Source of the DNA: an uncultured Chromatiaceae bacterium
GTDB taxonomy: Bacteria; Pseudomonadota; Gammaproteobacteria; Tenderiales; Tenderiaceae
Direction: 5' to 3'
DNA length: 64,000 nucleotides
Assembly: GCA_945787785.1 (NCBI GenBank)
Contig: CALZIO010000001.1
Coordinates: forward strand, 61,169 to 125,168
The notes below the pieces were generated by a model. The model searched no databases, had not been told where the DNA came from, and was given only the letters and a program-made list of their open reading frames with translations. Within the stretch, counting starts at the first letter, position 1. Each line of letters starts with the position of its first letter. Below are positions 17,134 through 33,461 of this stretch, one piece after another. A program made the translations under genes and the position numbers.

Positions 17134-17188
17134 AGAAACACTGCACACAGAGATGCGCAACACCACCAGATCAATTCTTTATCAGTAC

Positions 17189-17865: not shown

Positions 17866-18299
17866 TAGCTCGGGTGCTTGTTATCAGTCTGCTTATGCTC
17901 TTCTTCGGTTTTGTCCAGATCGAGGCGGCCACCAAGTTTAGAGCCATACAGGCGCACCATGAAATAAACGAATATCGATGCCACTAGGAGATAAAGAATT
18001 GCTATGCCAAACCCCCAATCAATCCAGGCACGCTCATAACCCGGGCGATCACCCCAAAAGGGGAAACTCAAACCGATGGCCACCAACAACACCACGATCA
18101 CCACACCAATGAACCACTTCGGTATCCCCTTTTGCGACTCCGGGATTGACTCCAGCAGCTCCCAGTCTTCCATGCCTCGCTTGGCTAGCCGCTCTTCATC
18201 CGTGTCATAACCAAAATGGTCTTCCGGTGTTTTACCCCATTTGCTGTCAATCGAAGTCAACTTCTCTTTTGGCAAGGGCTTGTTCTGTTGCTCGCTCAT
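17865..18299 (-). CDS. membrane protein with FixP_N-like (CcoP N-terminal) domain and no heme motif
   Basis: 144 aa. QKGIPKWFIGVVIV..FPFWGDRP resembles the CcoP N-domain region NPLPRWWFLLFIG..YP. No CxxCH. Paralog at 25925..26554. Confidence 0.5.
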   Translation of the reverse strand: MSEQQNKPLPKEKLTSIDSKWGKTPEDHFGYDTDEERLAKRGMEDWELLESIPESQKGIPKWFIGVVIVVLLVAIGLSFPFWGDRPGYERAWIDWGFGIAILYLLVASIFVYFMVRLYGSKLGGRLDLDKTEEEHKQTDNKHPS

Positions 18300-19612: not shown

Positions 19613-19674
19613 CGCCGTAATTTACCATGAAGGGGGCTTTTTTTCATCCGCAACACAACTCAGGGATATCGCTC

Positions 19675-22311: not shown

Positions 22312-22358
22312 TAAGCCTTAACACTCAGAGTGTGGCTTGAGTGGTACATAGCAAAAAA

Positions 22359-22739
22359 CTAGAAAGGAAAAAACCAGACAATGGCAGTCACCGCATGGGC
22401 AATGCCAAGTGTAACCGTCAGGCCAGCACTAATCATGTGCGGCACAAAAACTTCTTTATTAAAGACCACCATCGAAACACCAAGATAGGCCGTGCTACAG
22501 AGCAACAACAACAGGGCAATGCCCATATAAAATAGTATCTTGTGCTTAACCTCGTCCTTGACCTCGTAGGCTTCCTGTTGCGCCAGCGCCTCTTGGTTGA
22601 AAGCCTCCATTACCTCCAATGTATCATCGATACGTTGCTGCTCTTGTGCATGCGCGAACGGCATTGCCAGACAGAGAGAAAGCACCAGCAGCGCTGACAC
22701 TAGAGCAATACGATGTTTCAAGCAACGGTAAAGACTCAT
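22359..22739 (-). CDS. exported/membrane hypothetical protein
   Basis: 126 aa with signal peptide and C-terminal TM segments. Last gene of a tightly packed operon. Confidence 0.4.
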   Translation of the reverse strand: MSLYRCLKHRIALVSALLVLSLCLAMPFAHAQEQQRIDDTLEVMEAFNQEALAQQEAYEVKDEVKHKILFYMGIALLLLLCSTAYLGVSMVVFNKEVFVPHMISAGLTVTLGIAHAVTAIVWFFPF

Positions 22740-22744
22740 ACTAT

Positions 22745-22978
22745 TTATTTCTCACCCTTTGCGGCTTCCTCTTTGTTTTTCCGCATCGCATTGTGCCAAT
22801 AGAGTATTGCCATTAGGACAAACGGAAATAACACAGCAATCAGTAAGAAAATAAAAATCATCCATGGCGTATCTATGGTGACGTGCATATAACGATAACT
22901 GTCTGCCATCGCGGCCGGCATCATCAGTAACATCGCCATAAGCACAGCCAACTGACTCAATAATTTATTCATCAGCAT
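22745..22978 (-). CDS. small membrane protein (77 aa)
   Basis: Signal/TM segment plus a second TM. Overlaps the upstream FGE-family gene by 14 nt. Confidence 0.4.
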   Translation of the reverse strand: MLMNKLLSQLAVLMAMLLMMPAAMADSYRYMHVTIDTPWMIFIFLLIAVLFPFVLMAILYWHNAMRKNKEEAAKGEK

Positions 22979-24047
22979 TTACCCCTTCTTTTACATCCGC
23001 AGCACAACGAAAACCGAAAAAATCTGATGCATAATGTGGCCAGGAATAATTTCGGTGATAGGTGGTCGTAGAAAATGGGTCACTTTTCCAAGAGCCACCA
23101 CGCAACACTTTGTATTTGGCATCCACGCCCACTAAATCCACCACCTTCATGGCACGATCTGCGGGTGTAGAAGCGACTTGAATCTTGCCTTTAAAAATGT
23201 TCTGGTCTGCATCTGTGTTTTTATAGGGTAGAAAATCATCCTCAATCCACTCAGACACATTGCCAGCCATATCCATAACACCATACGGACTGGCACCATC
23301 AGAGTAACTCGTCACATCTGTGGTCGAACCCATATTGTAATAAGTATTGAGACGGGCTGTTTCCATCTGCTCACCCCAGGGCCAGCGCCGACCATCGTCG
23401 CCGCGCGCGGCTTTTTCCCATTCTGTTTCATGAGGCAAGCGCTTATTAGCCCAGGTACAATAGTTGCTGGCATCGTACCAGGAAATCATCGTCACCGGAT
23501 GCAATTCCATCCCTTCTTGTATGCGCCCATTTTCCCAATCAAGCGGCGGCCGATATCCATGCTCTGCAACAAAGCGAGCGTACTGGGCATTGGTGGTTGG
23601 GTATTTATCAATCTTATATTCGACTAGATTGACTTCATGTTTGGGATGATTCTGAGCGCTGGTTCTGATCCTGTCTGAGCCCATATAAAAAGGACCGGCA
23701 GGGATAGTTGCCATGCTATTGACCTCAACCCATTGCTCCGGACTTAACAGCGCCTCTACTTCTGCGAGACTATATGGTATCGTCTTTGCCCGGTCAGCCT
23801 CATGCCTTTCGTGCAGAGCTATATCTTCACCAGCAGCACGAATACGGCTATTCATTTCAGTCAGGTCATAGGTTGCCTTGCTAGACATTTCCTGGAAGAC
23901 GCGACTGTGACCCAAATCAACCACGTGAATCGCCCCACCCACCATGGCCAATGCGGCACACGTCACAAGAGTCGCACTTAGAAAGCGTTTACGTCTAGCC
24001 CGCTCCGTTACCGAGAGCTGACGTCTATTTTTATACTGCTTCTCCAT
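22965..24047 (-). CDS. membrane-anchored FGE-sulfatase (SUMF1/NirV-like) family protein
   Basis: 360 aa with an N-terminal TM. Motifs RLPHETEWEKAARG, MAGNVSEWIEDD, RVLRGGSW and GFRC match the FGE-sulfatase domain. Confidence 0.8.
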   Translation of the reverse strand: MEKQYKNRRQLSVTERARRKRFLSATLVTCAALAMVGGAIHVVDLGHSRVFQEMSSKATYDLTEMNSRIRAAGEDIALHERHEADRAKTIPYSLAEVEALLSPEQWVEVNSMATIPAGPFYMGSDRIRTSAQNHPKHEVNLVEYKIDKYPTTNAQYARFVAEHGYRPPLDWENGRIQEGMELHPVTMISWYDASNYCTWANKRLPHETEWEKAARGDDGRRWPWGEQMETARLNTYYNMGSTTDVTSYSDGASPYGVMDMAGNVSEWIEDDFLPYKNTDADQNIFKGKIQVASTPADRAMKVVDLVGVDAKYKVLRGGSWKSDPFSTTTYHRNYSWPHYASDFFGFRCAADVKEGVNADE

Positions 24048-24532
24048 TAACTTTCTGGGTCTGAAGGGCCGTTCTTAGAAGGCTGCTTATAGATCAAATG
24101 CTTCGGTCGTCGTCCATAGGTTCTTTTGATGACGATCTCACCAAACACACCACCAAATGCCGCCGCTTCAATAGCTACGATCAAAACCAGAATCCAGTAC
24201 CCAAACGGCAACAGGCCAACACCATCGGGCAACCCTTCGTAGTTCATCATTTGAATATAACTGTAACCACGGACGATGATAGGAACAAAATAACAAATCA
24301 ATTTACCGCCTAGGCCATAAACTAATGACACTACCATACCGGCAACAAATGGGACTAAAAACAGCGTTAATACCCACATCGGGCTAAAGGTCGAGACGCC
24401 AAAAAATAATTCCAGCCGTACACCCGGTGGCGGACTGAGATAATTCATTAAACGATCGCCAAAGTAATTTACAATTACACCAGCTGTAATGGCGACTGTA
24501 CCCATAACGATAGTCATTACACGGTTATTCAT
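24047..24532 (-). CDS. 4-TM membrane protein, unknown function
   Basis: 161 aa. Overlaps neighbouring genes by 1 nt and 8 nt, so translationally coupled. Confidence 0.5.
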   Translation of the reverse strand: MNNRVMTIVMGTVAITAGVIVNYFGDRLMNYLSPPPGVRLELFFGVSTFSPMWVLTLFLVPFVAGMVVSLVYGLGGKLICYFVPIIVRGYSYIQMMNYEGLPDGVGLLPFGYWILVLIVAIEAAAFGGVFGEIVIKRTYGRRPKHLIYKQPSKNGPSDPES

Positions 24533-25025
24533 TACTATCGCCTTGATACGACTCGCCAGTCAGTTTCTCAAACTCAGACTTTTTCACTTGATTTAAATAC
24601 CAGTCTTCAACCTTTAAGTTCGCCAGATATGCCGCCAGGGTTTTGCGATCTTCTTCAGGCAAATGGGAAAATGACGGCATTTGATATTCTGCTTTCAGCC
24701 GCGTTGGCAAAATCTGCTGTGGATCTGCTGCCGAAAGATAATCAAATAACCATGACTCATCACGCAGCGAACCGATCCCATCTAGAGCGGGTGCTGGCAC
24801 AGCCTGCATCGGATTCCGTACACCCCACAATGTGTGACAATCACGGCACTTTTGCTCCCGATAGAGTTCTCCACCCTTTTTCCGGACCTCGTTTGAGGCT
24901 GTACTATAAAAGGGAATTCCTTTATCCGGCTCAGTTTCTTGAGCTTGCCGATAACTATTTATACCTATAAACACAAAAACAATAACCGCGATTACAACCA
25001 GGATCCCTTTTTCACCTTTTCGCAT
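24525..25025 (-). CDS. membrane-anchored monoheme cytochrome c, NorC/CcoO-like
   Basis: 166 aa with an N-terminal TM. ELYREQKCRDCHTLWG resembles the NorC heme region. Paralog at 31494..32066. Confidence 0.7.
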   Translation of the reverse strand: MRKGEKGILVVIAVIVFVFIGINSYRQAQETEPDKGIPFYSTASNEVRKKGGELYREQKCRDCHTLWGVRNPMQAVPAPALDGIGSLRDESWLFDYLSAADPQQILPTRLKAEYQMPSFSHLPEEDRKTLAAYLANLKVEDWYLNQVKKSEFEKLTGESYQGDSNE

Positions 25026-25319
25026 TTATTCTTTGTTCTCAGCTTTTTCTTTTAAATTTTTATTCTCTGCTTTCTCTTGTAAAAGCTCTTCACGGCGTTT
25101 CATTTGAGCCTTCATGACATCCTGACTTTTCTTGAACTCTTCAGGCGTCATCTTATCCTTATCATTTTCATCAAACACCAGGTATTTGATATCCTCATCA
25201 AACTGTTCATTACGCGCAGCCCAGCGTATGGCAAAGATGGCAGCAACTATAATCAAGACACCGGCAACTAACCATACATAAATCGTCCAACCATCAGGTA
25301 ATTTATCTAAATCCATCAA
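25026..25319 (-). CDS. single-TM protein with charged C-terminal tail
   Basis: 97 aa. Adjacent to the cytochrome gene with no intergenic gap. Confidence 0.4.
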   Translation of the reverse strand: MMDLDKLPDGWTIYVWLVAGVLIIVAAIFAIRWAARNEQFDEDIKYLVFDENDKDKMTPEEFKKSQDVMKAQMKRREELLQEKAENKNLKEKAENKE

Positions 25320-25328
25320 ACCTCTCCT

Positions 25329-25652
25329 CTAAAATAGGTAACCTTGCAGCAACTGCATTGCCGCCATAATCACTGCCGCAACAATACCTAGATAAATCCA
25401 AAAAAACATGATTTTTTCACCAGTTTTGAGCTGCTTGACTGGCCCATCGGCATTAGTAGTTTTTGAACTACTTCTCATAAACTTAAATACAATAACTGTA
25501 AAAACAGCAATGCAAAAAAGCAGAAAGATAAAGATTCCCACACTAAACTGCTGGCTGTATAGACCTTCAACTCCCCAGCGATCATCCGTTATAGCCTGCA
25601 CAAATAGACCATCAAAGGCTGAAAAGGTTGCCAATGAGTCATGATAATTCAT
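25329..25652 (-). CDS. 2-TM membrane protein (start at ATG 25652; ORF-track TTG start at 25703 less likely)
   Basis: 107 aa. The terminator at 25702..25727 lies upstream, so this gene begins a new transcription unit. Confidence 0.4.
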   Translation of the reverse strand: MNYHDSLATFSAFDGLFVQAITDDRWGVEGLYSQQFSVGIFIFLLFCIAVFTVIVFKFMRSSSKTTNADGPVKQLKTGEKIMFFWIYLGIVAAVIMAAMQLLQGYLF

Positions 25653-25701
25653 CACACTTAATACCTGACTTTTGATATACCAAAGAACCGTAGTATACCT
25701 C

Positions 25702-25727
25702 AAAAAAAATGCCGCTCAGAGAGCGGC
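25702..25727 (-). terminator. rho-independent terminator ending the ccoN-ccoO-FixP_N-41aa unit
   Basis: On the minus strand: stem GCCGCTC..GAGCGGC followed by a T8 run. A second hairpin at 25744..25766. Confidence 0.5.
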
Positions 25728-25778
25728 AATAATATTCATCAAACTCCGGAGGTAAAAGCCTCCGGGTTTATTACATTG

Positions 25779-25904
25779 TTATGAATCTATCTGTTTCTTG
25801 CCTTTATCGTAATTATCAATAAAGAAACTGTAGATAAATGGGGCAACAAACACAACAATAATGATGCCCAGCAGCACCAACGGTGGATTATCAATATCTA
25901 TCAT
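25779..25904 (-). CDS. tiny single-TM protein (41 aa), possible CcoQ-position micro-subunit
   Basis: MIDIDNPPLVLLGIIIVVFVAPFIYSFFIDNYDKGKKQIDS. Sits between the FixP_N-like gene and the terminator. Confidence 0.3.
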   Translation of the reverse strand: MIDIDNPPLVLLGIIIVVFVAPFIYSFFIDNYDKGKKQIDS

Positions 25905-25924
25905 TTTAATCTCCTTAAAATCTT

Positions 25925-26554
25925 TTAGTGTGCAACACTGTGATCAGGCTGCCAACTGTAGTGTGGCAGACGCTTGATGACTATCAGCACCGCAATACAG
26001 AAATAAGCTACGTAGAAGATATCGATGGTATAACCCTTATCCCACCAAGGCTGTTTACGTTCACGAGTACCATCTGCTTTCCAATTGCCTTCGAAATTAG
26101 CCAGGACGACATGCGGACCAACGACTGTGTATTCACCCAGGTCAACACCCTTACGTTGTAACTCAATAACCTGACCTTCAATCATACGCAGATCATCCAT
26201 CTCAAGCGGGTGACGATCCAGCTGCCCCTGAATTCTTGCATTAGAGCTTTTGCCATTAGCCACGATGTACTCCATCTTGGCCCTGTCCCCATCAATCGCC
26301 TGAACTGCTGGACTATTCATCAACTTCAAATAGTCCTCATAGATTTCAGCCGTTGGGCGTTGCCCCCAAAGAGGGAAGGTAACCAAAAAAGCGCTGATAA
26401 TTGTCAAGCCCAGCAACCACACAACCGGTGATGGCAGACGGTTATTATCTTCTGCAATTCCCCCTAAACTTTCACCTTCCCATACCTTGGTTGCTGCTGA
26501 ATTTTGCTCTTCGTCAGTCAACGAGTACAGCGGTTTATCCATTTTCCATGACAT
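25925..26554 (-). CDS. membrane protein with FixP_N-like domain only (CcoP lacking both cytochrome c domains)
   Basis: 209 aa. NNRLPSPVVWLLGLTIISAFLVTFPLWGQRP aligns with CcoP [26 protein letters not shown]. No CxxCH. Lies directly downstream of the ccoO-like gene. Confidence 0.6.
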   Translation of the reverse strand: MSWKMDKPLYSLTDEEQNSAATKVWEGESLGGIAEDNNRLPSPVVWLLGLTIISAFLVTFPLWGQRPTAEIYEDYLKLMNSPAVQAIDGDRAKMEYIVANGKSSNARIQGQLDRHPLEMDDLRMIEGQVIELQRKGVDLGEYTVVGPHVVLANFEGNWKADGTRERKQPWWDKGYTIDIFYVAYFCIAVLIVIKRLPHYSWQPDHSVAH

Positions 26555-26568
26555 TGTTATTCTCCCCC

Positions 26569-27519
26569 TTACTTCAGGCTCATGATGAAGTCGATAAGAT
26601 AGCGAATTTCGCTATCCGCTGCGTAGTTTGGCACATCCGGCGGTATGACAGTTTTGCCATGCGCGTAGTCATTGTATGCTGTTCTCCAGGCATCATAGTC
26701 GATAGCCTTACCATCAGCATCATTCTCACCCCAGAGGTAATCATAACGAGGCATGATTGAATGTGGTTGCACCAAACGAGGATTAAAAAAGTGCATCATC
26801 ATCCACTCTTTAGATGCGTTACGAGAACCAACATGCAACAAGTCAGGTGCTTTCCGGTCAGAACCAAAGGCTGTTGGCGATTCACCATTATAATCACCTA
26901 GACGTGGTGGAATCCCAAAATACTGCCAATCCTGAGTTTGTTCAGGCAGCAAGGTATGACACCACCAGCAACCTTCACGAACAAACATGATTTTACCCGA
27001 ACCAATCAAATGGGTATTTGCATCACCCGCCGCATTCAACACCTGACTAGGCTGCCAACCACGAGTCGCTGATGCGTTCTCGATGTAGTTAACAGTTTCG
27101 CCATTGTGAGTGGCACGACTAATTACAAACACAGCACCATTATCGTGGTTAGCCTCTTCAATACGACCCTGCGCTGTACTCAACTCCGTTGCACCTGGAC
27201 CCAGTGTACGAGGATGGTTAATCCCACTCGGGAAAGGAGTGCCAGCTTCATACACAAATGCCTGCACAGTTTCGATTGGCTCATTGGTTTTAGGATCTTT
27301 ATTCAGAACCACTGTCTTCGGCTTGCCGTCACCGCGTAAAAATGGATCTTCATATGAGAACCCACCAATGCGGCCATAAGACAACTGCTTCGTTAAGCCC
27401 ATTTCAGTTACGGCTACTGATGTCATATCCACTGTAGGCATGTACAGCGTAATAACCATCGAGCCACCCAAGGCTACACCAAACAGGCGTGAGCCAATTT
27501 TATATTCTCTAAATGCCAT
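26569..27519 (-). CDS. ccoO: CcoO-like monoheme subunit II of cbb3-type oxidase, with an insertion of about 110 aa
   Basis: 316 aa with an N-terminal TM. VREGCWWCH and PDLLHVGSRNASKEWMMMHFFNPRLVQPHSIMPRY align with CcoO regions EGCYLCHS and [35 protein letters not shown]. Confidence 0.8.
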   Translation of the reverse strand: MAFREYKIGSRLFGVALGGSMVITLYMPTVDMTSVAVTEMGLTKQLSYGRIGGFSYEDPFLRGDGKPKTVVLNKDPKTNEPIETVQAFVYEAGTPFPSGINHPRTLGPGATELSTAQGRIEEANHDNGAVFVISRATHNGETVNYIENASATRGWQPSQVLNAAGDANTHLIGSGKIMFVREGCWWCHTLLPEQTQDWQYFGIPPRLGDYNGESPTAFGSDRKAPDLLHVGSRNASKEWMMMHFFNPRLVQPHSIMPRYDYLWGENDADGKAIDYDAWRTAYNDYAHGKTVIPPDVPNYAADSEIRYLIDFIMSLK

Positions 27520-27542
27520 TTATAAATCCTCCCCTACTATTA

Positions 27543-28949
27543 TTAACGTTCGTACGCCAATTCGTGTGGCAGACGGCCTTCTGGGATTTCAGTTCCGGCT
27601 TTAGCGGTCATATACATGTTGTACAACCAGACTATGTTACCGGTGAATACCATGGTGCCACCAATCCAACGCGCAATCATGTATGGATGTTCAGCGATTA
27701 CAACGTCAATATAGGGAACCTCGTAGATCTTACCTGCACCCTGAATCAAACCAGCGATGGTCATTGAAATCCAGTAGATTGCAAATCCGATCAGCAAGAA
27801 CCAGAAGTGGAAGTTAGCCAACGCCAGCGAATAAAGTTTACGACGCAGGATTGTTTGCAGACCGTAGTACACAGCCGCAGCTTCCAGAAATGTAGAGAAG
27901 CCAAGCAAGGCTAAATGAGCATGGGCAACGATCCAACCCGTACCATGGATATACCAGTTGATAGCACGTGTTTGTTGAAACCCACCTTGCATGTTCAGAG
28001 GAATCGCCAACATGACACCCGTGATGGTGTATTTGATTTCGACATTTTCCACAAACATGTGCCACTTACCAGTCATGGTCAACAGCAGGTTAGATACGAA
28101 AGCAATTGCAGGCACCAGGATCAACACCCCTTCTACAGAAGCGAATGACTTCAGCCACTCAGGCAAAGGCGCTGACATCAAATGGTGAGCCGCTGGTGTT
28201 GAGTAGAACACAACAACGGACCAAAAGTGCAAGTGACCAATACGATGCGAATAAAGCGGGTTACCGGTTACTTTTGGTACAGTGTAGTAAGCAATCGCCG
28301 CTGCGATTGGTGTAATCCAAAGACCTAATACATTGTGCGCAAACCACCATGTCAGGTATGCCTCACTCAAACCGGTCAGATTGAAGAACTCAGGGCTGTT
28401 ACCTACGATAAAAACGATGGTAACCATGAACACGCCAGCACCAAAGAACCAGTTAGTTGTATAGATGCCCTGGGTACGACGTTTGAGGATAGTCATCCAA
28501 ACGTTAAGCGCCATAGGTAATGCAATAAATGCAGCAATGTACAAATCTATAGCCCATGGAAAATCTGAATACTCACGACCAGAAGTCATACCGAACCACA
28601 GCAGAGTAAGGCCCAACGACAGACCGACGTTCCACAAGAAGCAGTTCCATACACCGAGTTTTTCAGACCACAGCTTGGTATTACCCAGCGCAGGCGTGAT
28701 GTACATCATTGCCATGGCGAATGCCATAGAAATCCAGCCAAAAATTACTGCCAGTACGTGAACCTGACGCATGTGACCGAACGAAAACAACTCAGAACCT
28801 GTCACAAAATCAGGAAATGCCAGTTTGGCCGCGTTAAACGATCCCAAACCAGTACCAACCACAAACCAAATAATAGACGAGAAACCAAAGAATACCGCTG
28901 CCGTACCTGGCGGGATATCCTCATTTCTTCTAAATAGATATTTCAACAT
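27543..28949 (-). CDS. ccoN: cbb3-type (C-family) heme-copper oxidase subunit I, CcoN-like
   Basis: 468 aa with 12 TM helices. Carries GHMRQVH, WWFAHN, FYSTPAAHH (Tyr six residues before the HH pair) and VAHAH. Confidence 0.85.
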   Translation of the reverse strand: MLKYLFRRNEDIPPGTAAVFFGFSSIIWFVVGTGLGSFNAAKLAFPDFVTGSELFSFGHMRQVHVLAVIFGWISMAFAMAMMYITPALGNTKLWSEKLGVWNCFLWNVGLSLGLTLLWFGMTSGREYSDFPWAIDLYIAAFIALPMALNVWMTILKRRTQGIYTTNWFFGAGVFMVTIVFIVGNSPEFFNLTGLSEAYLTWWFAHNVLGLWITPIAAAIAYYTVPKVTGNPLYSHRIGHLHFWSVVVFYSTPAAHHLMSAPLPEWLKSFASVEGVLILVPAIAFVSNLLLTMTGKWHMFVENVEIKYTITGVMLAIPLNMQGGFQQTRAINWYIHGTGWIVAHAHLALLGFSTFLEAAAVYYGLQTILRRKLYSLALANFHFWFLLIGFAIYWISMTIAGLIQGAGKIYEVPYIDVVIAEHPYMIARWIGGTMVFTGNIVWLYNMYMTAKAGTEIPEGRLPHELAYER

Positions 28950-29002
28950 GGTTTACAACCTCCCCCTTCTTTCGAAGATTAAAAAACTTAAAACTTGAAA
29001 TC

Positions 29003-29098
29003 TTATTCGTGACTACCAGGCATCATCAGATACCATGCAAACCACATACTGGAAAACGCAAGGATGATACAAAAAATTGTCGCTACCATCGTTAACAT
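29003..29098 (-). CDS. tiny hydrophobic protein (31 aa) immediately upstream of ccoN
   Basis: MLTMVATIFCIILAFSSMWFAWYLMMPGSHE. GGAGGGGATATT precedes the ATG. Confidence 0.3.
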   Translation of the reverse strand: MLTMVATIFCIILAFSSMWFAWYLMMPGSHE

Positions 29099-29169
29099 AA
29101 TATCCCCTCCGAAATACTTAAATTAAAATAGCTGGAATTGCCCCATTTAGCAGGAACAAAGAAACTTTA

Positions 29170-29451
29170 CTATTTGGCAGCCGCCGCTTCCAATTCACCG
29201 TGACGATTTAGTGAGATCAGCATAATAGCGGTGAACGCAACACCGAACACAATCATGCACCAGTTGATAAAGCCCATAAACGTTGATGGATCCAGGCCTT
29301 GCATACCCCAACCGCCCCAGTCATCAAAGCGAGCACGGCCGAGTGCGCACATTAATGCAGCACCAAACACACTACCATTACCCATACCTGTGGTAACTCC
29401 AGCAATTAGACTTACGATAAACGTTTTAGCTGGCGTCAGATTATTCATCAT
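29170..29451 (-). CDS. small membrane protein (93 aa)
   Basis: Two hydrophobic segments with a Gly-rich segment GVTTGMGNG. First gene of the minus-strand unit leading into ccoN. Confidence 0.4.
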   Translation of the reverse strand: MMNNLTPAKTFIVSLIAGVTTGMGNGSVFGAALMCALGRARFDDWGGWGMQGLDPSTFMGFINWCMIVFGVAFTAIMLISLNRHGELEAAAAK

Positions 29452-29781
29452 GATTCCCCTCCATTTGCGGTTTGGTCAACCCATTAACAGTATTGTAGCC
29501 TTCCAACTCCATCTGAATTCACCTTTGAGCCCCCCTCTCAGGTTTCTTTTTGACAGATTTACACTTCAAAATTGGAAGCCAACTCTGACCAGCGATATTT
29601 GCATATCTATTACAAACCAGTCAAGCGCTTTTTAAAAACAACCAACAGATTTTACTAAACTATTCTAGTAATTTTTCGCTCTCATTGATTAACTGTATAA
29701 TTCCTGCACAATTCACAGCCTGCACTCATCTTGCTTTAATTGATAAATCAGACTGGTACAGCAAATATACAGGGAATTTTG

Positions 29782-29976
29782 ATGAAGGAAATTATTATTT
29801 ATTCGATTGCGGCAATTGCAGTAATCACGGTGTTTGGCTACTCAATCCACATGTTTATTGGCGGGTTTGTTGAACCACAAACAGAAACACTTATTATCAC
29901 CGCTGGCTGCATATTTGCTGCCACTGTAATTGGCTTTCTTACCTGGGATATTATTAAGAAGAGACGCGGCAGCTAA
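29782..29976 (+). CDS. small 2-TM protein (64 aa)
   Basis: Start at the internal ATG of ORF 29740..29976. Transcribed divergently from the ccoN unit. Confidence 0.3.
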   Translation: MKEIIIYSIAAIAVITVFGYSIHMFIGGFVEPQTETLIITAGCIFAATVIGFLTWDIIKKRRGS

Positions 29977-29997
29977 ACCAAAAACCGCAAAGCAGAT

Positions 29998-30453
29998 TTA
30001 TTTGTATACTGACAAATGCGAGCGAACATCTTTAAAGTCCGACTCTTGCATAAATTGACCGCGGTGAAAAACAAACTGACGCTTCTTCCCTGACAGATCC
30101 ATACCCACCAAGCCAAACGATTTTCCTGCGTAATCAGGGAAATAACGAAGATCTTTTACCAGCTCCACTCGCTCTCCGCCGTTAACTGTAACTGCTACGG
30201 ACTTTTTCTGTAATTCAAGCCCGCGCGGAGATTTCGGCAATAACATCAGCCGAGTTCCCAGAATCCGGTTTGCGCCTATCAGAAAGATGAAAGTTGCCAG
30301 AAAAACAAGTACGTATGCCATAGTCTGGTCACCGCTGTACCAGGTTTTTGCTGCATAAGATGCCAGCACCAACACGACAGGCACATACAGCAGGGCATCC
30401 CAAGCCGCCCCGCGCTTATCTGAAGCCAGGTTATAGTTTTCTACTTTCGCCAT
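29998..30453 (-). CDS. membrane-anchored hypothetical protein
   Basis: 151 aa with two N-terminal TM helices and a soluble C-terminal domain. Its start abuts the stop of the thioredoxin-like gene. Confidence 0.5.
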   Translation of the reverse strand: MAKVENYNLASDKRGAAWDALLYVPVVLVLASYAAKTWYSGDQTMAYVLVFLATFIFLIGANRILGTRLMLLPKSPRGLELQKKSVAVTVNGGERVELVKDLRYFPDYAGKSFGLVGMDLSGKKRQFVFHRGQFMQESDFKDVRSHLSVYK

Positions 30454-30983
30454 TAACCTGTCTCAGAGCCAAGAACTTTCTTAAGCGTATACTCCAGCTC
30501 GCCGTACAGAACCCGTCCAGCCTGCTTGTACTGCACCACCTGATTTTCATCAATCACGTAAGTCCAGGGGTCACCCATGACCTTAAATGCCTTGAATGCT
30601 TCAGGGTTTTGATACTGATCCATATGCAGGAATATCACATCGTCGCCATAGACTTCCATTATCCCTTTCAACATCTGCAGCTGTTTATCGCAGACGGTAC
30701 AGTGTCCGGGCGTCGCAAATTCAAGCACAATAGGTTTACCTTGCGCCAAGGCATCATCCAGCGAATACTGGTACATTCTCTCATCAGGGTGGCGGTAACT
30801 GGTAATGCGACTGAAATCCCCGCCCACATCGGCTAAAGTCTTGGTCTTTACCTGAGGAGCAGTTGACCCCACTTGCAGCGAACCCTCAGGTGAGGCGCCA
30901 CAACCAACCAGTAATAAAGTAACTGACAACCCTAACAGGAACCGCATCATAGCCGCTCTCCTAATAATTCTTTTCCCAACCAA
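30453..30983 (-). CDS. TlpA/ResA-like thioredoxin-fold lipoprotein (CxxC)
   Basis: 176 aa with lipobox LLVGC. HCTVC redox motif in a thioredoxin-fold context (VLEFATPGHCTVC). Confidence 0.65.
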   Translation of the reverse strand: MVGKRIIRRAAMMRFLLGLSVTLLLVGCGASPEGSLQVGSTAPQVKTKTLADVGGDFSRITSYRHPDERMYQYSLDDALAQGKPIVLEFATPGHCTVCDKQLQMLKGIMEVYGDDVIFLHMDQYQNPEAFKAFKVMGDPWTYVIDENQVVQYKQAGRVLYGELEYTLKKVLGSETG

Positions 30984-31479
30984 TACAGGTTCTGACCAGA
31001 TTATATGCCCAGATACAGTTAGCTAACAGCACCATGGTTCCAAACAAACCCATCATAGCCAGCCATGGCTTGACTATCTGCTCCACTTCATCTGGTGACA
31101 TTGAAATGCTTGCCGTACCACCTAAGATGCCCGCAATTGTAAATAACAATACCATCCCAATCAAACCGGTATTATGGATCCAAAAATGCACTTTAACTAA
31201 GGTAACACTGTATATATGTCGCTTAACTAAGCGCGGAATAATGTAGTAAACGCCAGCAAAAATGGCCATTTCCACCCAGCCCAACAGATTTATATGAGTA
31301 TGAGCGCGCACAATCAGATTGCCATGTAAGCGATGGTCAACAAAATGGCGGAAATCTGATATCCCCCCCATTAATGCCCCCCAGGAAAAACCAATAAGAC
31401 TATATATAATGCAGCAGTATACAAACCAGAGAGTATATCGAATATAAACCTTATCCTCTGCCCAAGGTTGACCACTCAC
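30961..31479 (-). CDS. 4-TM mini-HCO paralog (C-terminal CcoN-like helices with HTH motif), copy 2
   Basis: 172 aa. RAHTHINLLGW and VHFWIHNTGLIGMVLLFTIAGILGG align with CcoN WIVAHAHLALLGF and FHFWFLLIGFAIYWISMTIAGLIQG. Confidence 0.6.
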   Translation of the reverse strand: MSGQPWAEDKVYIRYTLWFVYCCIIYSLIGFSWGALMGGISDFRHFVDHRLHGNLIVRAHTHINLLGWVEMAIFAGVYYIIPRLVKRHIYSVTLVKVHFWIHNTGLIGMVLLFTIAGILGGTASISMSPDEVEQIVKPWLAMMGLFGTMVLLANCIWAYNLVRTCIGWEKNY

Positions 31480-31493
31480 GCTATTACCCCCTA

Positions 31494-32066
31494 CTACTTT
31501 TCTTCTGCTTGTTTTTCACGCACATCCTGATACTTATCGCCCCAGTCATCAGGAGCAACCATCTTTAACATGCTATCAATAAACTGAGACTTCCCTTCAG
31601 GCGGGAGCGCTGATGAAGCAGAACCCTGCTCCGCCTTCAGACCAAAAAGGAACGAAGCTATTGCATGCAGATCTTCATCTGACATTTCAGCAACATAAGC
31701 AGCTTCTTTTGGCGGCATCCCATGATCAATTGTCATGGCCCCATAGGTATCTTCAGGTTTTTTTAGAAATGAATAGATCCAGTCAAAGCTGCGTTTCGAG
31801 CCAAGCCCATCAAGTGACAACCCCATGTTAGTGCCATTACGCATCGCTCGATGACATGAAGTACAACGCGCCTCACGAAAGATCTGAGTTCCACGCCGCC
31901 CTTCTTCATCAAACTCATAGTGGGTCTTGACCTCGAACATAGGCTTGTCTGAATTAAGACGCACAAACTCCAGCACAGCATAACCGATAACTGCCGCGAC
32001 TATGAACGCCCCAAATATTCCAAACAGGACCTTTTCACCCTGTTTTAACGACTGCTTTCCAGACAT
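31494..32066 (-). CDS. membrane-anchored monoheme cytochrome c, NorC-like (paralog of 24525..25025)
   Basis: 190 aa with an N-terminal TM and CTSCH. QIFREARCTSCHRAM..LSLDGLGSKRSFDWIYSFL parallels the paralog. Confidence 0.7.
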   Translation of the reverse strand: MSGKQSLKQGEKVLFGIFGAFIVAAVIGYAVLEFVRLNSDKPMFEVKTHYEFDEEGRRGTQIFREARCTSCHRAMRNGTNMGLSLDGLGSKRSFDWIYSFLKKPEDTYGAMTIDHGMPPKEAAYVAEMSDEDLHAIASFLFGLKAEQGSASSALPPEGKSQFIDSMLKMVAPDDWGDKYQDVREKQAEEK

Positions 32067-32112
32067 AACTTATTTCCAAACCCACCCATGTTGGCCACAC
32101 ACACACTGAACC

Positions 32113-32138
32113 CGCCACGAACAAAAAAGGCGGTTAAC
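32113..32138 (-). terminator. rho-independent terminator after cytochrome c4 gene
   Basis: On the minus strand: GGCGG-gttaa-CCGCC stem followed by a T6 run. A second strong hairpin (11-bp stem) lies at 32151..32180. Confidence 0.5.
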
Positions 32139-32201
32139 CCGCCTTTTAGATTGCCAGGGTGCAAATAAGTTGCACCCTGGATATTGTTAAAACACTAAAA
32201 A

Positions 32202-32966
32202 CTAGGGCAGATGCTCAACCGGAATTCGAGAGTTACCCATAGTTGTTTGAGGCGCTTGAGTCAGAAAAGTCGCAACATTCAGAATATCCTCATCCGTCAG
32301 CTTCTGGGCAACTATCTGCATTTGTTTCATTGGGTCATTAGCCCGTGATCCATCACGCCATTTCTTCAGCTGGCTAACCAAGTAAGTAAACTTCTGCTCA
32401 CCAATGCGTGGGTACATTGGATCTACGCCGCGGCCGTTGTGACCATGGCATGATAAACACGCAGGAATACCACGATCCAGATCACCGTAATTGACTAAAG
32501 CTTTACCAAGGTGGGATTCACCAATTTCAGTACCACTTTCTTTCAGAGCAGCGATATCTGAACCACCACTTGCTTCTTGTAACTCTGTCCCGCTGAAAAT
32601 ACGACCAATTGAGTTCAGGTAAGCCGCAACATCCTTGCGATCCTGAGGGCTCAGACCCTTGGCATTCGCATTCATCACAAACATGGTTGTGTCCTGACGT
32701 CTGTCGTTGGCATAATCATCTAGCTGCTTAGCCAGAAACATATAAATTTGACCTGCCAGACGAGGCGTACCCATCATGTCATTACCCATGCCGTCGGCAC
32801 CGTGACATGAAGTACAGGCAGGCACATCACCCTTGCCGTTTTCAAATATTGATTTGCCGCTGTTTAAATCAGCACCAGTCACTGAACCACTAGCGAAAGC
32901 TGGTGATACTGCCACAGCCATTGCAACGATTGACGCCGACCCCAATTTCTTTAAATAAGTGCGCAT
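32202..32966 (-). CDS. diheme cytochrome c4-type
   Basis: 254 aa with signal peptide and two CxxCH motifs (CTSCH and CLSCH) in repeated cytochrome-c-like halves. Confidence 0.8.
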   Translation of the reverse strand: MRTYLKKLGSASIVAMAVAVSPAFASGSVTGADLNSGKSIFENGKGDVPACTSCHGADGMGNDMMGTPRLAGQIYMFLAKQLDDYANDRRQDTTMFVMNANAKGLSPQDRKDVAAYLNSIGRIFSGTELQEASGGSDIAALKESGTEIGESHLGKALVNYGDLDRGIPACLSCHGHNGRGVDPMYPRIGEQKFTYLVSQLKKWRDGSRANDPMKQMQIVAQKLTDEDILNVATFLTQAPQTTMGNSRIPVEHLP

Positions 32967-33116
32967 GATAAAGACACCCTCCCAGATTCTTGTCTTTGTA
33001 AACCTTCGTCTCCCGACGGCATACCCTACACTCAGGCATGCCCAGACGTCAAGAATTTAAAGAACCTTGCCCAAAAGCATTAGACAGGAACTCTAAATCG
33101 TAAATAGATCCCTCTA

Positions 33117-33209
33117 TTAAGAATTTTTCTTAAGAACGAAAGCAGCCAATGCTAACGCAAAGATAAACCAAAGAACATAGAGAGTAAGTACTTGACCTGT
33201 TTCTAACAT
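33117..33209 (-). CDS. tiny single-TM peptide (30 aa), tentative
   Basis: GGAGGAATAATA precedes the ATG. Sequence MLETGQVLTLYVLWFIFALALAAFVLKKNS. Confidence 0.2.
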   Translation of the reverse strand: MLETGQVLTLYVLWFIFALALAAFVLKKNS

Positions 33210-33461
33210 TATTATTCCTCCCAGAAATAAAGATATTGACTTGTTTTTATATACCAACCCAAAAAAGTACAGCTAAAAACGATGTATATCATGACACAGA
33301 ATCCGATTGCAAGCATCAAACCTGAAAACTTTTTTATTATCAAAGCACAGCCAAACCATTTTGAGCGCACCACAGCAGCAACAGGATGCGCCCCCTGATG
33401 ATTTAAGCTATGATCTGCCGCTTTTCCCGTACCGGGCACGGACTATAAAACGAAGTTTTTA

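What the first reader, a model, noticed from the sequence alone, without database searches (positions are those of the whole stretch)
22359..33209. Divergent cbb3-like heme-copper oxidase island lacking CcoP, with duplicated accessory modules
A complete CcoN-like subunit I and a CcoO-like subunit II are present, but no CcoP diheme subunit (FixP_N domain plus two CxxCH). The locus instead holds separate genes for a FixP_N-domain-only membrane protein, two NorC-like membrane-anchored monoheme cytochromes c, a diheme cytochrome c4, two 4-TM proteins matching only the C-terminal HxH helices of subunit I, a TlpA-like thioredoxin lipoprotein and an FGE-sulfatase-family protein. It also has at least eight small membrane proteins, most of them translationally coupled (overlaps of 1 to 23 nt). 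Each module has a second copy at 16109..19612 next to ccoG. This modular, duplicated architecture is not the canonical ccoNOQP/ccoGHIS arrangement. It may be an oxidase, or an NO-related reductase, with an unusual electron-entry path.
Basis: partly seen in the sequence, partly recalled or inferred. Interest (0 to 1): 0.8.

Follow-up and report, generated by a model that had tools for sequence, protein, structure and literature searches.

The report
Distal-type cbb3 oxidase gene cluster
This is a real, very well conserved gene cluster for an unusual high-affinity oxygen-reducing respiratory enzyme used by iron-oxidising and electrode-feeding bacteria, but the same cluster has already been mapped gene by gene in the literature, although its biochemistry is still untested.

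Summary
Window 16109..34883 holds about 29 co-located genes around a divergent CcoN (27543..28949) and CcoO (26569..27519), with no CcoP. CcoN keeps all six metal-binding histidines, the C-family cross-link tyrosine and the Ca2+ glutamate. It matches solved cbb3 oxidases at 216 bits against 33 bits for NorB, so it is an O2 reductase, not an NO reductase.

Almost the whole gene order, small ORFs included, recurs in Gamma- (Tenderia-like), Beta- (Gallionellaceae, Nitrotoga, Ferrovum) and Zetaproteobacteria.

It is not new. Eddie et al. (bioRxiv 2022.05.06.490989, Fig. 2B) list the same 26 genes in Ca. Tenderia electrophaga. Iron-oxidiser papers call this the "distal" cbb3 type. Its CcoN, CcoO and 209-aa homologue are "Complex IV (2)", among the most highly expressed genes there.

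What I add:
- The 97-aa protein is CcoS-like.
- Two further small genes are conserved.
- Terminator-like hairpins are conserved at only two junctions, after c4/Cyc1 and after the 41-aa gene. This marks 93-31-CcoN-CcoO-209-41 as the likely structural unit.
- The "duplicated modules" are three ancient paralogue pairs, not a full second copy.

Novelty: already known. Interest is low to moderate.

The parts
27543..28949 (-). CcoN-like catalytic subunit I (468 aa), distal-type C-family heme-copper O2 reductase
   Evidence: Pfam COX1 E 1.8e-75. Best solved match is 3mk7_A cbb3 CcoN at 216 bits, against NorB at 33 bits. H60, H207, H257, H258, H345, H347, Y251 and E122 (P. stutzeri numbering) are all kept. 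78-96% identical in 80+ genomes.
26569..27519 (-). CcoO-like monoheme subunit II (316 aa), with a roughly 120-aa insertion between the TM anchor and the heme domain
   Evidence: Pfam FixO E 5e-18. Residues 170-272 align to solved CcoO 51-152, including CxxCH, the GS.R..PDL motif and the MP methionine. Present in 72 of 73 covered loci.
25925..26554 (-). 209-aa two-TM protein with a FixP_N-like motif and no heme site; candidate replacement for the CcoP membrane anchor
   Evidence: FixP_N is sub-threshold but recurs in 38 of 45 homologues. Present in 70 of 70 covered loci. The homologue Tel_00450 is co-expressed with CcoN and CcoO. The AF2 model is poor (pLDDT 64.5) and has no fold match.
25779..25904 (-). 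41-aa single-TM peptide, the last gene before the conserved terminator
   Evidence: tblastn hit in 64 of 70 covered loci. One TM segment.
25710..25728 (-). Intrinsic-terminator-like hairpin (TGCCGCTCTCTGAGCGGCA followed by T8) after the structural genes
   Evidence: Found. A hairpin of dG <= -10 plus a T-run sits at this junction in 49 of 62 loci, with different stem sequences. It is nearly absent at the other junctions. It coincides with a drop of about 3.4 log2 units in T. electrophaga RNA-seq.
29003..29098 (-).
   Evidence: tblastn hit in 74 of 80 loci, median 65% identity. Also present in the Zetaproteobacteria locus.
29170..29451 (-). 93-aa membrane protein, first gene of the ccoN transcription unit
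   Evidence: Present in 69 of 72 covered loci. The plus-strand ORF 29231..29635 is its antisense shadow.
25329..25703 (-). Two-TM protein, 124 aa as the longest ORF; the conserved part suggests about 107 aa (25329..25652)
   Evidence: Present in 66 of 69 covered loci, but only the C-terminal 65% is conserved. Called as 107 aa in an identical MAG.
25026..25319 (-). CcoS/FixS-like maturation factor (97 aa)
   Evidence: Pfam FixS E 9.7e-5, 22.5 bits against a cutoff of 23.1. FixS is hit in 26 of 33 homologues. The motif W33...Q39-F-x-E-D43 is invariant.
24525..25025 (-). TM-anchored monoheme cytochrome c (166 aa)
   Evidence: Cytochrom_C E 1.5e-8, one CRDCH motif and one N-terminal TM helix. 27% identical to the 190-aa paralogue. 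Only generic class-I cytochrome c hits in the PDB.
24047..24532 (-). 161-aa four-TM protein with no family match
   Evidence: No Pfam or NCBIfam hit. Present in 60 of 64 covered loci.
22965..24047 (-). TM-anchored periplasmic FGE-sulfatase-fold protein (360 aa), not a true formylglycine-generating enzyme
   Evidence: Pfam E 3e-52. Nearest solved proteins are the OvsA/EgtB C-terminal domain, ToxD, CalU17 and pFGE. It has only three Cys (C30, C197, C350), with no catalytic Cys pair. Present in 58 of 61 covered loci.
22745..22978 (-). 77-aa membrane protein
   Evidence: Present in 58 of 61 covered loci.
22359..22739 (-). 126-aa membrane protein
   Evidence: Present in 57 of 61 covered loci.
19675..22311 (-). 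878-aa polytopic membrane protein with a spermidine-synthase-like domain
   Evidence: Pfam Spermine_synth E 1.6e-11. Syntenic in 53 of 58 covered loci and in Zetaproteobacteria.
18296..19612 (-). CcoG-like polyferredoxin (a cbb3 assembly factor; canonical CcoG is a cupric reductase, from my own knowledge)
   Evidence: Fer4_5 and Fer4_18 hits. tblastn hits in 56 loci. Annotated as CcoG in T. electrophaga.
17865..18299 (-). 144-aa two-TM hairpin protein, a distant paralogue of the 209-aa protein
   Evidence: 34% identity over 61 aa to the 209-aa protein, E 2e-4. Follows CcoG in 51 loci.
17572..17865 (-). 97-aa monoheme cytochrome c with a lipoprotein-type signal (LSAC)
   Evidence: One CSDCH motif. 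Weak Cytochrome_CBB3 hit. Conserved next to the 144-aa gene.
17189..17572 (-). 127-aa lipoprotein of unknown family
   Evidence: No Pfam hit. Conserved at this position.
16109..17133 (+). Convergent gene pair: second truncated CcoN (171 aa) and a Bact_hydrolase-family protein (170 aa)
   Evidence: COX1 profile positions 310-407, E 1.6e-14; PF20603 E 1.4e-8. Adjacent to the CcoG end of the cluster in 19-25 of 32 metagenome loci with enough flank.
30961..31479 (-). Truncated CcoN (172 aa): a free-standing four-helix module equivalent to CcoN TM9-12, with the HxH motif
   Evidence: COX1 profile positions 311-435, E 2.6e-18. 762 homologue clusters, all about 170 aa. H60 and H62 are invariant. AF2 pLDDT 87; Foldseek top hits are cbb3 CcoN chains with TM 0.77-0.80.
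31494..32066 (-). TM-anchored monoheme cytochrome c (190 aa)
   Evidence: Cytochrom_C E 3.4e-9 and one CTSCH motif. The T. electrophaga homologue is labelled 'Complex IV (1)'.
30453..30983 (-). TlpA/CcmG-like thioredoxin lipoprotein (CTVC motif)
   Evidence: Thioredoxin, AhpC-TSA and Redoxin hits. Weak DsbE/CcmG matches in the PDB.
29998..30453 (-). 151-aa two-TM protein with no family match
   Evidence: No Pfam hit. Moves together with the thioredoxin and truncated-CcoN module.
29740..29976 (+).
   Evidence: Conserved on the opposite strand in 49 of 80 loci and in Zetaproteobacteria.
32202..32966 (-). Periplasmic diheme cytochrome c4, positional orthologue of Cyc1, followed by a terminator-like hairpin at 32125..32147
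   Evidence: Two CxxCH motifs and two Cytochrom_C stretches. The T. electrophaga gene at this position, Tel_00405, is labelled Cyc1 and is highly expressed. The hairpin after it is conserved in 45 of 49 loci.
33462..34883 (+). 473-aa polytopic membrane protein that travels with the cluster
   Evidence: No Pfam hit. Found in 41 loci at varying positions inside or beside the cluster, including Zetaproteobacteria-type contigs.

Best explanation
The locus encodes the 'distal'-type cbb3 (C-family) heme-copper oxygen reductase that iron-oxidising and electrode-oxidising Proteobacteria use as a main terminal oxidase, together with its electron donor and its assembly machinery.

Shown here:
- CcoN has a complete heme b / heme b3-CuB site with the C-family cross-link tyrosine.
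- CcoO has a normal heme c domain.

Inferred electron path: electrons from extracellular Fe(II) or a cathode reach the periplasmic diheme c4 (Cyc1, 32202..32966). They then pass to CcoO heme c, either directly or through the membrane-anchored monoheme cytochromes. From there they go to heme b and then to heme b3-CuB, where O2 is reduced.

Inferred from co-transcription, a conserved terminator and published expression data: the enzyme proper is encoded by the first transcription unit, 93 aa - 31 aa - CcoN - CcoO - 209 aa - 41 aa. In this unit the heme-less 209-aa FixP_N-like protein takes the place of the CcoP membrane anchor, and the small peptides play CcoQ-like roles.

Inferred from family resemblance: the genes after the terminator are lower-level maturation or accessory factors. 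These are the CcoS-like protein, cytochrome c166, the FGE-fold protein, the SpeE-like protein, CcoG and the 144-aa protein. The upstream thioredoxin module belongs with them. They would serve copper and heme insertion and thiol redox control.

The role of the two truncated CcoN proteins is unknown. My guess is a heme-handling or scaffold partner during CcoN assembly.
For: Active site and family:
- CcoN scores 216 bits to solved cbb3 CcoN and aligns over its full length.
- All metal ligands, Y251 and E122 are kept.
- The CcoO heme domain is conserved.

Conservation:
- 423 species genomes carry a relative.
- The genes from the 93-aa gene through ccoN to the SpeE-like gene are present in 91-100% of covered loci; the upstream block (151-aa gene to c4/Cyc1) is adjacent in about two-thirds.
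- The same order holds in Zetaproteobacteria.

Literature:
- The identical gene list is published for T. electrophaga, where it is described as 'a sort of alternative complex IV'.
- 'Complex IV (2)' comprises Tel_00440, Tel_00445 and Tel_00450 (homologues of CcoN, CcoO and the 209-aa protein). Their logCPM values are 13.7, 12.8 and 12.0, and Cyc1 is at 12.4. Downstream genes are at 8.6-10.7.
- The paper states that complex IV-2 is among the highest-expressed genes, while the canonical ccoNOPQ operon is low.
- Distal ccoNO is about 3-fold more highly expressed than proximal in Sideroxydans ES-1, and a cyc1 homologue sits with the cbb3 cluster.
- Most Gallionellaceae genomes contain either the proximal or the distal ccoN form; any that carry only the distal form would have to respire O2 with it.

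Operon structure: terminator-like hairpins are conserved only after c4 (45 of 49 loci) and after the 41-aa gene (49 of 62 loci).

Maturation factors: FixS is hit in 26 of 33 homologues of the 97-aa protein, and the CcoG domains are present.
Against: - There is no biochemical evidence for any subunit beyond CcoN and CcoO. The M. ferrooxydans proteome reportedly detected only CcoNO.
- The FixP_N and FixS assignments are below Pfam thresholds.
- The 209-aa profile does not find solved CcoP, and its model is of low confidence.
- CcoN differs from P. stutzeri at three proton-path or heme b3 positions: S240G, Y317A and E323Q. Its kinetics and pumping may therefore differ.
- The 2022 preprint, unlike the 2017 paper, calls the canonical oxidase the main one.
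- The terminators are consensus and energy predictions, not mapped 3' ends.
Confidence: 0.75

Rival explanations
1. The enzyme is a minimal two-subunit CcoNO oxidase that takes electrons straight from soluble Cyc1. All other conserved genes are assembly factors or unrelated membrane proteins, not subunits, so there is no 'split CcoP'.
For: Only CcoNO was seen in the PV-1 proteome. CcoNO is the only pair common to all cbb3 clusters according to Ducluzeau 2008, as cited. The FixP_N signal in the 209-aa protein is sub-threshold and has no structural support.
Against: The 209-aa gene is present in 70 of 70 covered loci, lies 14-20 nt after ccoO and upstream of the conserved terminator, and is expressed at the CcoN/CcoO level in T. 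electrophaga. Small hydrophobic proteins are often missed by shotgun proteomics (general knowledge).
Confidence: 0.2
2. The cluster encodes several independent modules. The two truncated CcoN proteins, each with a neighbouring monoheme cytochrome, would act as separate heme b/c electron-transfer units, the 'partial oxidases' cbb3-1 and cbb3-2 of Eddie et al. Together with CcoNO these would form a larger 'alternative complex IV'.
For: This interpretation is published. The truncated CcoN proteins are real, conserved, confidently folded four-helix modules that keep the HxH heme-ligand motif plus further conserved histidines. Each lies in the same conserved block as a monoheme cytochrome c; the first is immediately adjacent to its cytochrome.
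Against: A four-helix fragment lacks the CuB ligands and the second heme b ligand (H60 of TM2), so it cannot be an oxidase on its own. These genes are expressed about 20-30-fold lower than CcoN in T. electrophaga. The upstream module is not adjacent in about a third of loci.
Confidence: 0.15
3. It is a nitric-oxide reductase, or another NO-related heme-copper enzyme, rather than an oxygen reductase.
For: NORs and C-family oxidases are the closest relatives within the superfamily, and cbb3 enzymes have some NO-reductase side activity (my own knowledge). CcoN falls below the NCBIfam ccoN equivalog cutoff.
Against: Solved NorB scores 33 bits, against 216 bits for CcoN. The C-family tyrosine is kept, and the partner subunit is FixO-type, not NorC. 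Carriers are obligate microaerophilic iron oxidisers, and most of their genomes contain either the proximal or the distal ccoN form.
Confidence: 0.03

Closest known systems
The conserved 'cbb3-1 / cbb3-2' region of Ca. Tenderia electrophaga (ALP51721-ALP51744; Tel_00400-Tel_005xx). Sources: Eddie et al. bioRxiv 10.1101/2022.05.06.490989 Fig. 2B; Eddie et al. 2017, PMC5371394, Fig. S2 and Table S1.
   Same: The gene order and content match. In order: membrane protein, diheme Cyc1, monoheme cytochrome, truncated CcoN, thioredoxin, hypotheticals, CcoN (468 aa), CcoO (316 aa), hypotheticals, monoheme cytochrome, the FGE-domain protein (annotated there as a 'Ser/Thr kinase'), a small TM protein, the SpeE-like protein, CcoG, a monoheme cytochrome, and a second truncated CcoN. 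CcoN in Ca. Tenderia sp. MAGs is 94-95% identical to the window's.
   Different: Nothing material. The window is another genome of the same lineage; identical proteins occur in NCBI MAGs GCA_945787605.1 and GCA_947259615.1. I add the CcoS-like assignment, two extra small genes and the conserved terminators.
'Distal' cbb3 oxidase subtree of Ducluzeau, Ouchane & Nitschke 2008, as applied to Sideroxydans ES-1, Gallionellaceae and Zetaproteobacteria (PMC8788666, PMC7029218, PMC10734462).
   Same: A CcoN/CcoO pair without the canonical CcoQ and CcoP, present in those same taxa. Sideroxydans and Gallionella CcoN are 84-87% identical to the window's, and Zetaproteobacteria CcoN is 78% identical.
   Different: I could not read the 2008 paper or place the sequence in its tree. 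The assignment rests on the later papers' statements and on the taxa that carry it. In a 50%-identity library this clade is a single representative, and the next full-length relative is only 40% identical.
Canonical (proximal) cbb3 oxidase CcoNOQP with ccoGHIS, e.g. P. stutzeri 3MK7.
   Same: Same fold and the same metal ligands, tyrosine cross-link position and Ca2+ glutamate in CcoN. Same CcoO heme domain. CcoG-like and CcoS-like maturation genes are nearby.
   Different: - CcoN is only about 31% identical.
- There is no diheme CcoP; a heme-less 209-aa protein carries only a weak FixP_N-like motif.
- CcoO has a roughly 120-aa insertion.
- E323 is Gln, Y317 is Ala and S240 is Gly.
- No recognisable CcoH, CcoI or CcoQ.
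- Many extra conserved membrane proteins.
- No FNR/Anr box in the promoter regions.
cNOR (NorCB).
   Same: Same superfamily. It has a membrane-anchored monoheme cytochrome c partner and no diheme third subunit.
   Different: The subunit I match is far weaker (33 bits). The C-family tyrosine is present here, and the partner is FixO-type.

Membership tests
C-family (cbb3-type) heme-copper oxygen reductase | Subunit I with six histidine ligands for heme b, heme b3 and CuB | tested here: met
   H60, H207, H257, H258, H345 and H347 equivalents are all present in an alignment with P. stutzeri CcoN.
C-family (cbb3-type) heme-copper oxygen reductase | Cross-link tyrosine in helix VII, six residues before the HH pair (the C-family position) | tested here: met
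   The sequence FYSTPAAHH aligns to P. stutzeri Y251...H257 H258. The cross-link itself cannot be tested from sequence.
C-family (cbb3-type) heme-copper oxygen reductase | CcoO/FixO monoheme subunit encoded next to subunit I | tested here: met
   FixO E 5e-18. The CxxCH motif, the Met ligand region and the GS.R..PDL motif align to solved CcoO.
C-family (cbb3-type) heme-copper oxygen reductase | Score above the curated ccoN and ccoO equivalog cutoffs (canonical subfamily) | tested here: not met
   TIGR00780 scores 230 bits against a cutoff of 583. TIGR00781 scores 63 bits against a cutoff of 201. The locus is therefore a divergent, non-canonical subfamily.
C-family (cbb3-type) heme-copper oxygen reductase | O2 reduction with high affinity | not testable with these tools
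   Indirect support only: high expression in microaerophilic iron oxidisers and electroautotrophs.
Canonical CcoNOQP enzyme | CcoP: FixP_N anchor plus two c-type heme domains | tested here: not met
   No such ORF exists in the 64-kb window. The only diheme protein is a signal-peptide c4 without FixP_N.
Published Tenderiales / iron-oxidiser 'distal cbb3' cluster | Same gene content and order as ALP51721-ALP51744 | tested here: met
   Compared gene by gene with the Fig. 2B legend and the Table S1 gene lengths: 1407, 951 and 624 nt there, against 1407, 951 and 630 nt here. Synteny holds in 80 genome loci.
cNOR / qNOR | Subunit I closer to NorB than to oxidases, with no cross-link tyrosine | tested here: not met
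   NorB 4xyd_A scores 33 bits, against 216 bits for CcoN. The tyrosine is present.
CcoP/FixP N-terminal domain (for the 209-aa protein) | Pfam FixP_N above threshold | tested here: inconclusive
   18.8 bits against a cutoff of 24.9. A sub-threshold hit recurs in 38 of 45 homologues. A profile search does not find solved CcoP.
CcoS/FixS maturation factor (for the 97-aa protein) | Pfam FixS: TM helix followed by the W...QFDD-type motif | tested here: inconclusive
   22.5 bits against a cutoff of 23.1. FixS is hit in 26 of 33 homologues, and W33, Q39, F40, E42 and D43 are invariant.
CcoG | Polytopic membrane protein with Fer4_5 and Fer4_18 cluster-binding domains | tested here: met
   Fer4_5 E 3.5e-10 and Fer4_18 E 8.7e-10, with five predicted TM segments. 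Cupric reductase activity was not tested.
Formylglycine-generating enzyme | FGE-sulfatase fold | tested here: met
   PF03781 E 3e-52.
Formylglycine-generating enzyme | Pair of catalytic, copper-binding cysteines near the C-terminus | tested here: not met
   Only C30 (in the TM helix), C197 and C350 are present. Alignments to FGE structures stop at residue 276. That the Cys pair defines the family is my own knowledge.

The most novel reading that the evidence does not exclude
The distal enzyme is a structurally distinct C-family subtype. In it the diheme CcoP would be replaced by a heme-less FixP_N-like anchor plus three small peptides. Electrons would enter from the soluble diheme Cyc1. The free-standing four-helix 'truncated CcoN' proteins, each a single pseudo-repeat of the oxidase fold that keeps the HxH heme ligands, would be genuine heme-binding partners, either as an extra electron-entry module or as a dedicated heme b/b3 delivery chaperone. 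No protein of that kind has been characterised for any heme-copper oxidase, as far as I know.
Probability: 0.2. Interest if true: 0.6.

Novelty: already known. Interest (0 to 1): 0.3.

Why it matters
This oxidase is the probable last step of respiration in neutrophilic iron oxidisers (Gallionellaceae, Zetaproteobacteria), in Nitrotoga and in electrode-feeding Tenderiales. These organisms drive iron cycling, corrosion and biocathodes.

Its subunit composition, oxygen affinity and proton-pumping stoichiometry set the very thin energy budget of these lifestyles, and none of these has been measured. The locus itself is not a discovery, because it is already charted in the literature.

What is useful here is a sharper and testable parts list:
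- a six-gene structural unit bounded by a conserved terminator;
- a CcoS-like factor;
- two overlooked small genes;
- a clear exclusion of the NO-reductase reading.

Tried and rejected
- **FNR/Anr box.** TTGAT-N4-ATCAA with up to one mismatch gave 6 matches against 3.3 expected, none in a promoter region. No low-O2 regulator site could be inferred.
- **Sigma-70 promoter scan.** Fewer hits than in shuffled sequence (16 against 26.9), so it was uninformative.
- **Structure of the 209-aa protein.** The AF2 model reached only pLDDT 64.5, and Foldseek against the PDB gave nothing below E = 1. A profile search of PDB sequences did not find CcoP.
- **'NorC-like' label for the 166-aa cytochrome.** The PDB search gave only weak generic class-I cytochrome c hits. 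The label holds for architecture only.
- **Recent duplication of modules.** Rejected. The paralogues are 27-34% identical, and both copies are present across the proteobacterial classes examined.
- **Mobile or horizontally acquired island.** GC is somewhat lower inside the cluster (0.42-0.48 against about 0.50-0.53). However, the flanks are housekeeping genes (FtsY, RsmD, CoaD, GGT, Fpg, RpoN, SpoT), and the Fpg flank is syntenic in other Gammaproteobacteria. No mobility genes were seen.
- **Second oxidase or CcoP in the window.** None found.
- **Papers I could not obtain.** Ducluzeau 2008 and the journal version of Eddie 2022 are not held. Reference 34 of the preprint could not be identified, and Emerson 2013 does not describe the cluster.

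Full report

Yes. Between 22359 and 32966 the minus strand carries an almost uninterrupted string of ORFs.
- a COX1/CcoN-like protein of 468 aa (27543..28949, E 1.8e-75);
- a FixO/CcoO-like protein of 316 aa with one CWWCH motif (26569..27519);
- a 209-aa two-TM protein with a weak FixP_N hit and no heme motif (25925..26554);
- two TM-anchored monoheme cytochromes c (24525..25025 and 31494..32066);
- a diheme c4-type cytochrome (32202..32966);
- two proteins of about 170 aa that match only COX1 profile positions 310-435, including the HxH motif (30961..31479 and 16109..16624);
- a thioredoxin-fold lipoprotein with a CTVC motif (30453..30983);
- an FGE-sulfatase-fold protein (22965..24047);
- CcoG (18296..19612).

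No other heme-copper oxidase and no FixP_N protein with two CxxCH motifs exists in the 64-kb window. Overlaps of 1-23 nt are present at five junctions.

One statement is too strong: 'each module has a second copy'. Only three do. The truncated CcoN pair is 29% identical. The FixP_N-like hairpin pair is 34% identical over 61 aa. A third monoheme cytochrome has no detectable similarity to the other two.

**2. What is the core enzyme?**

The CcoN-like protein matches solved cbb3 CcoN chains over its whole length (3mk7_A at 216 bits) and NorB only marginally (33 bits). I mapped residues onto P. stutzeri numbering.
- Kept: heme b ligands H60 and H347, heme b3 ligand H345, CuB ligands H207, H257 and H258, the helix-VII tyrosine Y251, the Ca2+ ligand E122, and W203, T215, Y223, H243 and H337.
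- Changed: S240 to Gly, Y317 to Ala and E323 to Gln.

Gln at position 323 is the rule among the non-canonical representatives in the 50%-identity library. Glu appears in representatives 44-54% identical to P. stutzeri and in a few more distant ones.

The CcoO-like protein aligns to solved CcoO from residue 170, with the CxxCH motif, the GS.R..PDL motif and the MP methionine. It carries an insertion of about 120 residues after its TM anchor.

Both proteins fall well below the NCBIfam equivalog cutoffs. This is therefore a divergent C-family oxygen reductase, not an NO reductase.

**3. How widely is it conserved?**

The protein database returns hundreds of CcoN homologues at 77-95% identity, from MAGs labelled Gamma-, Beta- and Zetaproteobacteria. 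A scan of one genome per species found 423 carriers. The best 80 include Ca. Tenderia and 'Chromatiaceae' MAGs (94-96%), Gallionella, Sideroxydans, Ca. Nitrotoga fabula and Ferrovum.

At 50% clustering the whole clade collapses into one representative. The next full-length relative is 40% identical, and canonical CcoN about 31%.

A tblastn search with 27 window proteins against the 80 loci shows strict synteny. The order is:

c4 - cyt c190 - truncated CcoN - thioredoxin - 151 - (78, opposite strand) - 93 - 31 - CcoN - CcoO - 209 - 41 - 124 - 97 - cyt c166 - 161 - FGE-like - 77 - 126 - SpeE-like 878 - CcoG - 144 - cyt c97 - lipoprotein 127

Counting only loci whose sequence covers the expected position, the genes from the 93-aa gene to the SpeE-like gene are present in 91-100% of cases. 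The upstream block (151 to c4) is adjacent in about 68%.

A Zetaproteobacteria contig has every one of these genes in the same order, apart from c4. On Mariprofundaceae-type contigs, c4 and the 473-aa membrane protein sit at the other end of the cluster, beside the second truncated CcoN. That second truncated CcoN and its hydrolase-family neighbour flank the CcoG end in 19-25 of 32 metagenome loci with enough sequence.

The conserved unit in the window therefore spans 16109..34883.

**4. Is it already known?**

Yes.
- Eddie et al. (bioRxiv 10.1101/2022.05.06.490989) show in Fig. 2B a 26-gene region of Ca. Tenderia electrophaga (ALP51721-ALP51744) with the same order and content. They call it a region 'containing cytochrome cbb3 oxidase 1 and 2', 'a sort of alternative complex IV'. 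They say it is conserved in Tenderiales and neighbouring orders and was previously noted in freshwater iron oxidisers.
- Their 2017 paper (PMC5371394) notes synteny of the Cyc1 region with M. ferrooxydans.
- Iron-oxidiser papers distinguish 'proximal' and 'distal' cbb3 forms after Ducluzeau 2008, which 'differ in their subunit composition'. They report distal ccoNO as highly expressed in Sideroxydans ES-1, with a cyc1 homologue attached to the cbb3 cluster.
- T. electrophaga also has a separate canonical ccoNOQP operon.

The locus is thus described by comparative genomics and transcriptomics, but not biochemically.

**5. Operon architecture (new here)**

The window has strong terminator-like hairpins on the coding strand at 32147..32125, after c4, and at 25728..25710, after the 41-aa gene. 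I scanned every junction of the cluster in all loci for a hairpin of dG <= -10 kcal/mol followed by a T-run.
- It is present after c4 in 45 of 49 loci.
- It is present after the 41-aa gene in 49 of 62 loci, with different stem sequences.
- It is present in only 0-6 loci at 15 other junctions.
- It is present in 21 of 76 loci in the 93-to-ccoN gap.

The published T. electrophaga expression table fits this pattern.

| Gene | logCPM |
|---|---|
| Cyc1 | 12.4 |
| CcoN | 13.7 |
| CcoO | 12.8 |
| 209-aa homologue | 12.0 |
| next gene downstream | 8.6 |
| cyt c190 homologue | 9.3 |
| truncated CcoN | 8.7 |
| SpeE-like | 9.5 |
| CcoG | 10.7 |

CcoN, CcoO and the 209-aa homologue are the paper's 'Complex IV (2)', described as among the highest-expressed genes, while canonical ccoNOPQ is low. 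I therefore infer that 93-31-CcoN-CcoO-209-41 is the structural transcription unit and that the rest is made at lower levels.

**6. The accessory proteins**

- The 97-aa protein is CcoS/FixS-like. It scores 22.5 bits against a cutoff of 23.1, FixS is hit in 26 of 33 homologues, and the W...QF.ED motif is invariant.
- The 209-aa protein shows the FixP_N motif in 38 of 45 homologues, always below threshold. Its periplasmic domain has no recognisable fold.
- The FGE-fold protein lacks the catalytic Cys pair and resembles non-FGE members of the fold.
- The thioredoxin is TlpA/CcmG-like.
- The truncated CcoN is a real family, with 762 clusters all of about 170 aa. The HxH motif is invariant and there are further conserved histidines. 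Its confident AF2 model (pLDDT 87) superposes on TM9-12 of solved CcoN with TM-score 0.77-0.80. It lacks the CuB ligands and the TM2 histidine, so it cannot be an oxidase on its own.

**7. Most likely mechanism**

Shown: a complete C-family O2-reducing active site, a normal CcoO heme c domain, and a conserved, highly expressed neighbouring diheme c4.

Inferred:
- The electron path is Cyc1, then CcoO heme c, then heme b, then heme b3-CuB, where O2 is reduced. The step from Cyc1 to CcoO may run through the anchored monoheme cytochromes.
- The heme-less 209-aa protein and the small peptides fill the structural roles of CcoP and CcoQ.
- The CcoS-like protein, CcoG, the thioredoxin and probably the FGE-fold protein support cofactor insertion.

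Rivals are the minimal CcoNO enzyme, independent 'partial oxidase' modules, and NO reductase. They are weighed in their own section. Only the last is close to excluded.

**8. Verdict**

The finding is accurate as an observation and sensible as an interpretation, but it rediscovers a published locus. Novelty is 'already known'. Interest is low to moderate. It rests on the unresolved biochemistry of an ecologically important oxidase, not on surprise.

Noticed in passing
window 29003..29098 (-): A 31-aa single-TM peptide (MLTMVATIFCIILAFSSMWFAWYLMMPGSHE) lies directly upstream of ccoN. It is conserved in 74 of 80 loci and in Zetaproteobacteria, and is a candidate CcoQ-like or CcoM-like small subunit. 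A gene at this position ('657277.peg.91') appears in the published Tenderia figure without annotation.
   Followed up: partly
window 29740..29976 (+): A 78-aa two-TM protein is encoded on the opposite strand in the middle of the cluster. It is conserved in 49 of 80 loci and in the Zetaproteobacteria locus.
   Followed up: partly
window 27543..28949 (-), residues equivalent to P. stutzeri S240, Y317, E323: CcoN has Gly, Ala and Gln at three positions that I recall belong to the proton pathway or to the H-bond with the heme b3 histidine in the P. stutzeri structure. Gln323 is common to most non-canonical C-family representatives. Ala317 and Gly240 look specific to this clade. Alignment uncertainty was not examined.
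   Followed up: partly
Representative library hits P0128, P0135, P0161, P0167, P0170, P0194 and others: Many full-length CcoN-like proteins (440-560 aa, 22-31% identical to P. stutzeri CcoN) lack several or all of the heme and CuB histidine ligands. They appear to be a sizeable population of degenerate or repurposed subunit-I homologues.
   Followed up: no
window 24001..30000: GC content dips to 0.42-0.47 inside the oxidase cluster, against about 0.50-0.53 in the flanks. CcoN is 78-96% identical across three proteobacterial classes, while its neighbours are 45-65% identical. I did not resolve whether this reflects extreme constraint or lateral spread.
   Followed up: no
window 4790..5626 (-): A 278-aa Ion_trans-family protein (voltage-gated-type cation channel, E 3e-43) sits in the lowest-GC stretch of the window (0.41), next to an RpoH-like sigma factor gene (5762..6613).
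   Followed up: no
window 46634..46963 (+): A further small (110 aa, stop to stop) ORF with one CxxCH motif and no Pfam match lies outside the cluster.
   Followed up: no
window 33462..34883 (+); L062, L055, L133, L152: The 473-aa nine-TM protein with no family match always travels with the cluster, but its position varies. It is beside c4 in the window and in Tenderia-like genomes, between the 151 and 93-aa genes in Nitrotoga and Sideroxydans, and beside c4 at the far end in Mariprofundaceae-type contigs.
   Followed up: partly
window 17189..17572 (-) and 17865..18299 (-): Downstream of ccoG, where canonical operons have ccoH, lie a two-TM hairpin protein (144 aa) and, after a small cytochrome, a 127-aa lipoprotein. 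This could be a split CcoH-like function. No FixH profile hit was found.
   Followed up: no
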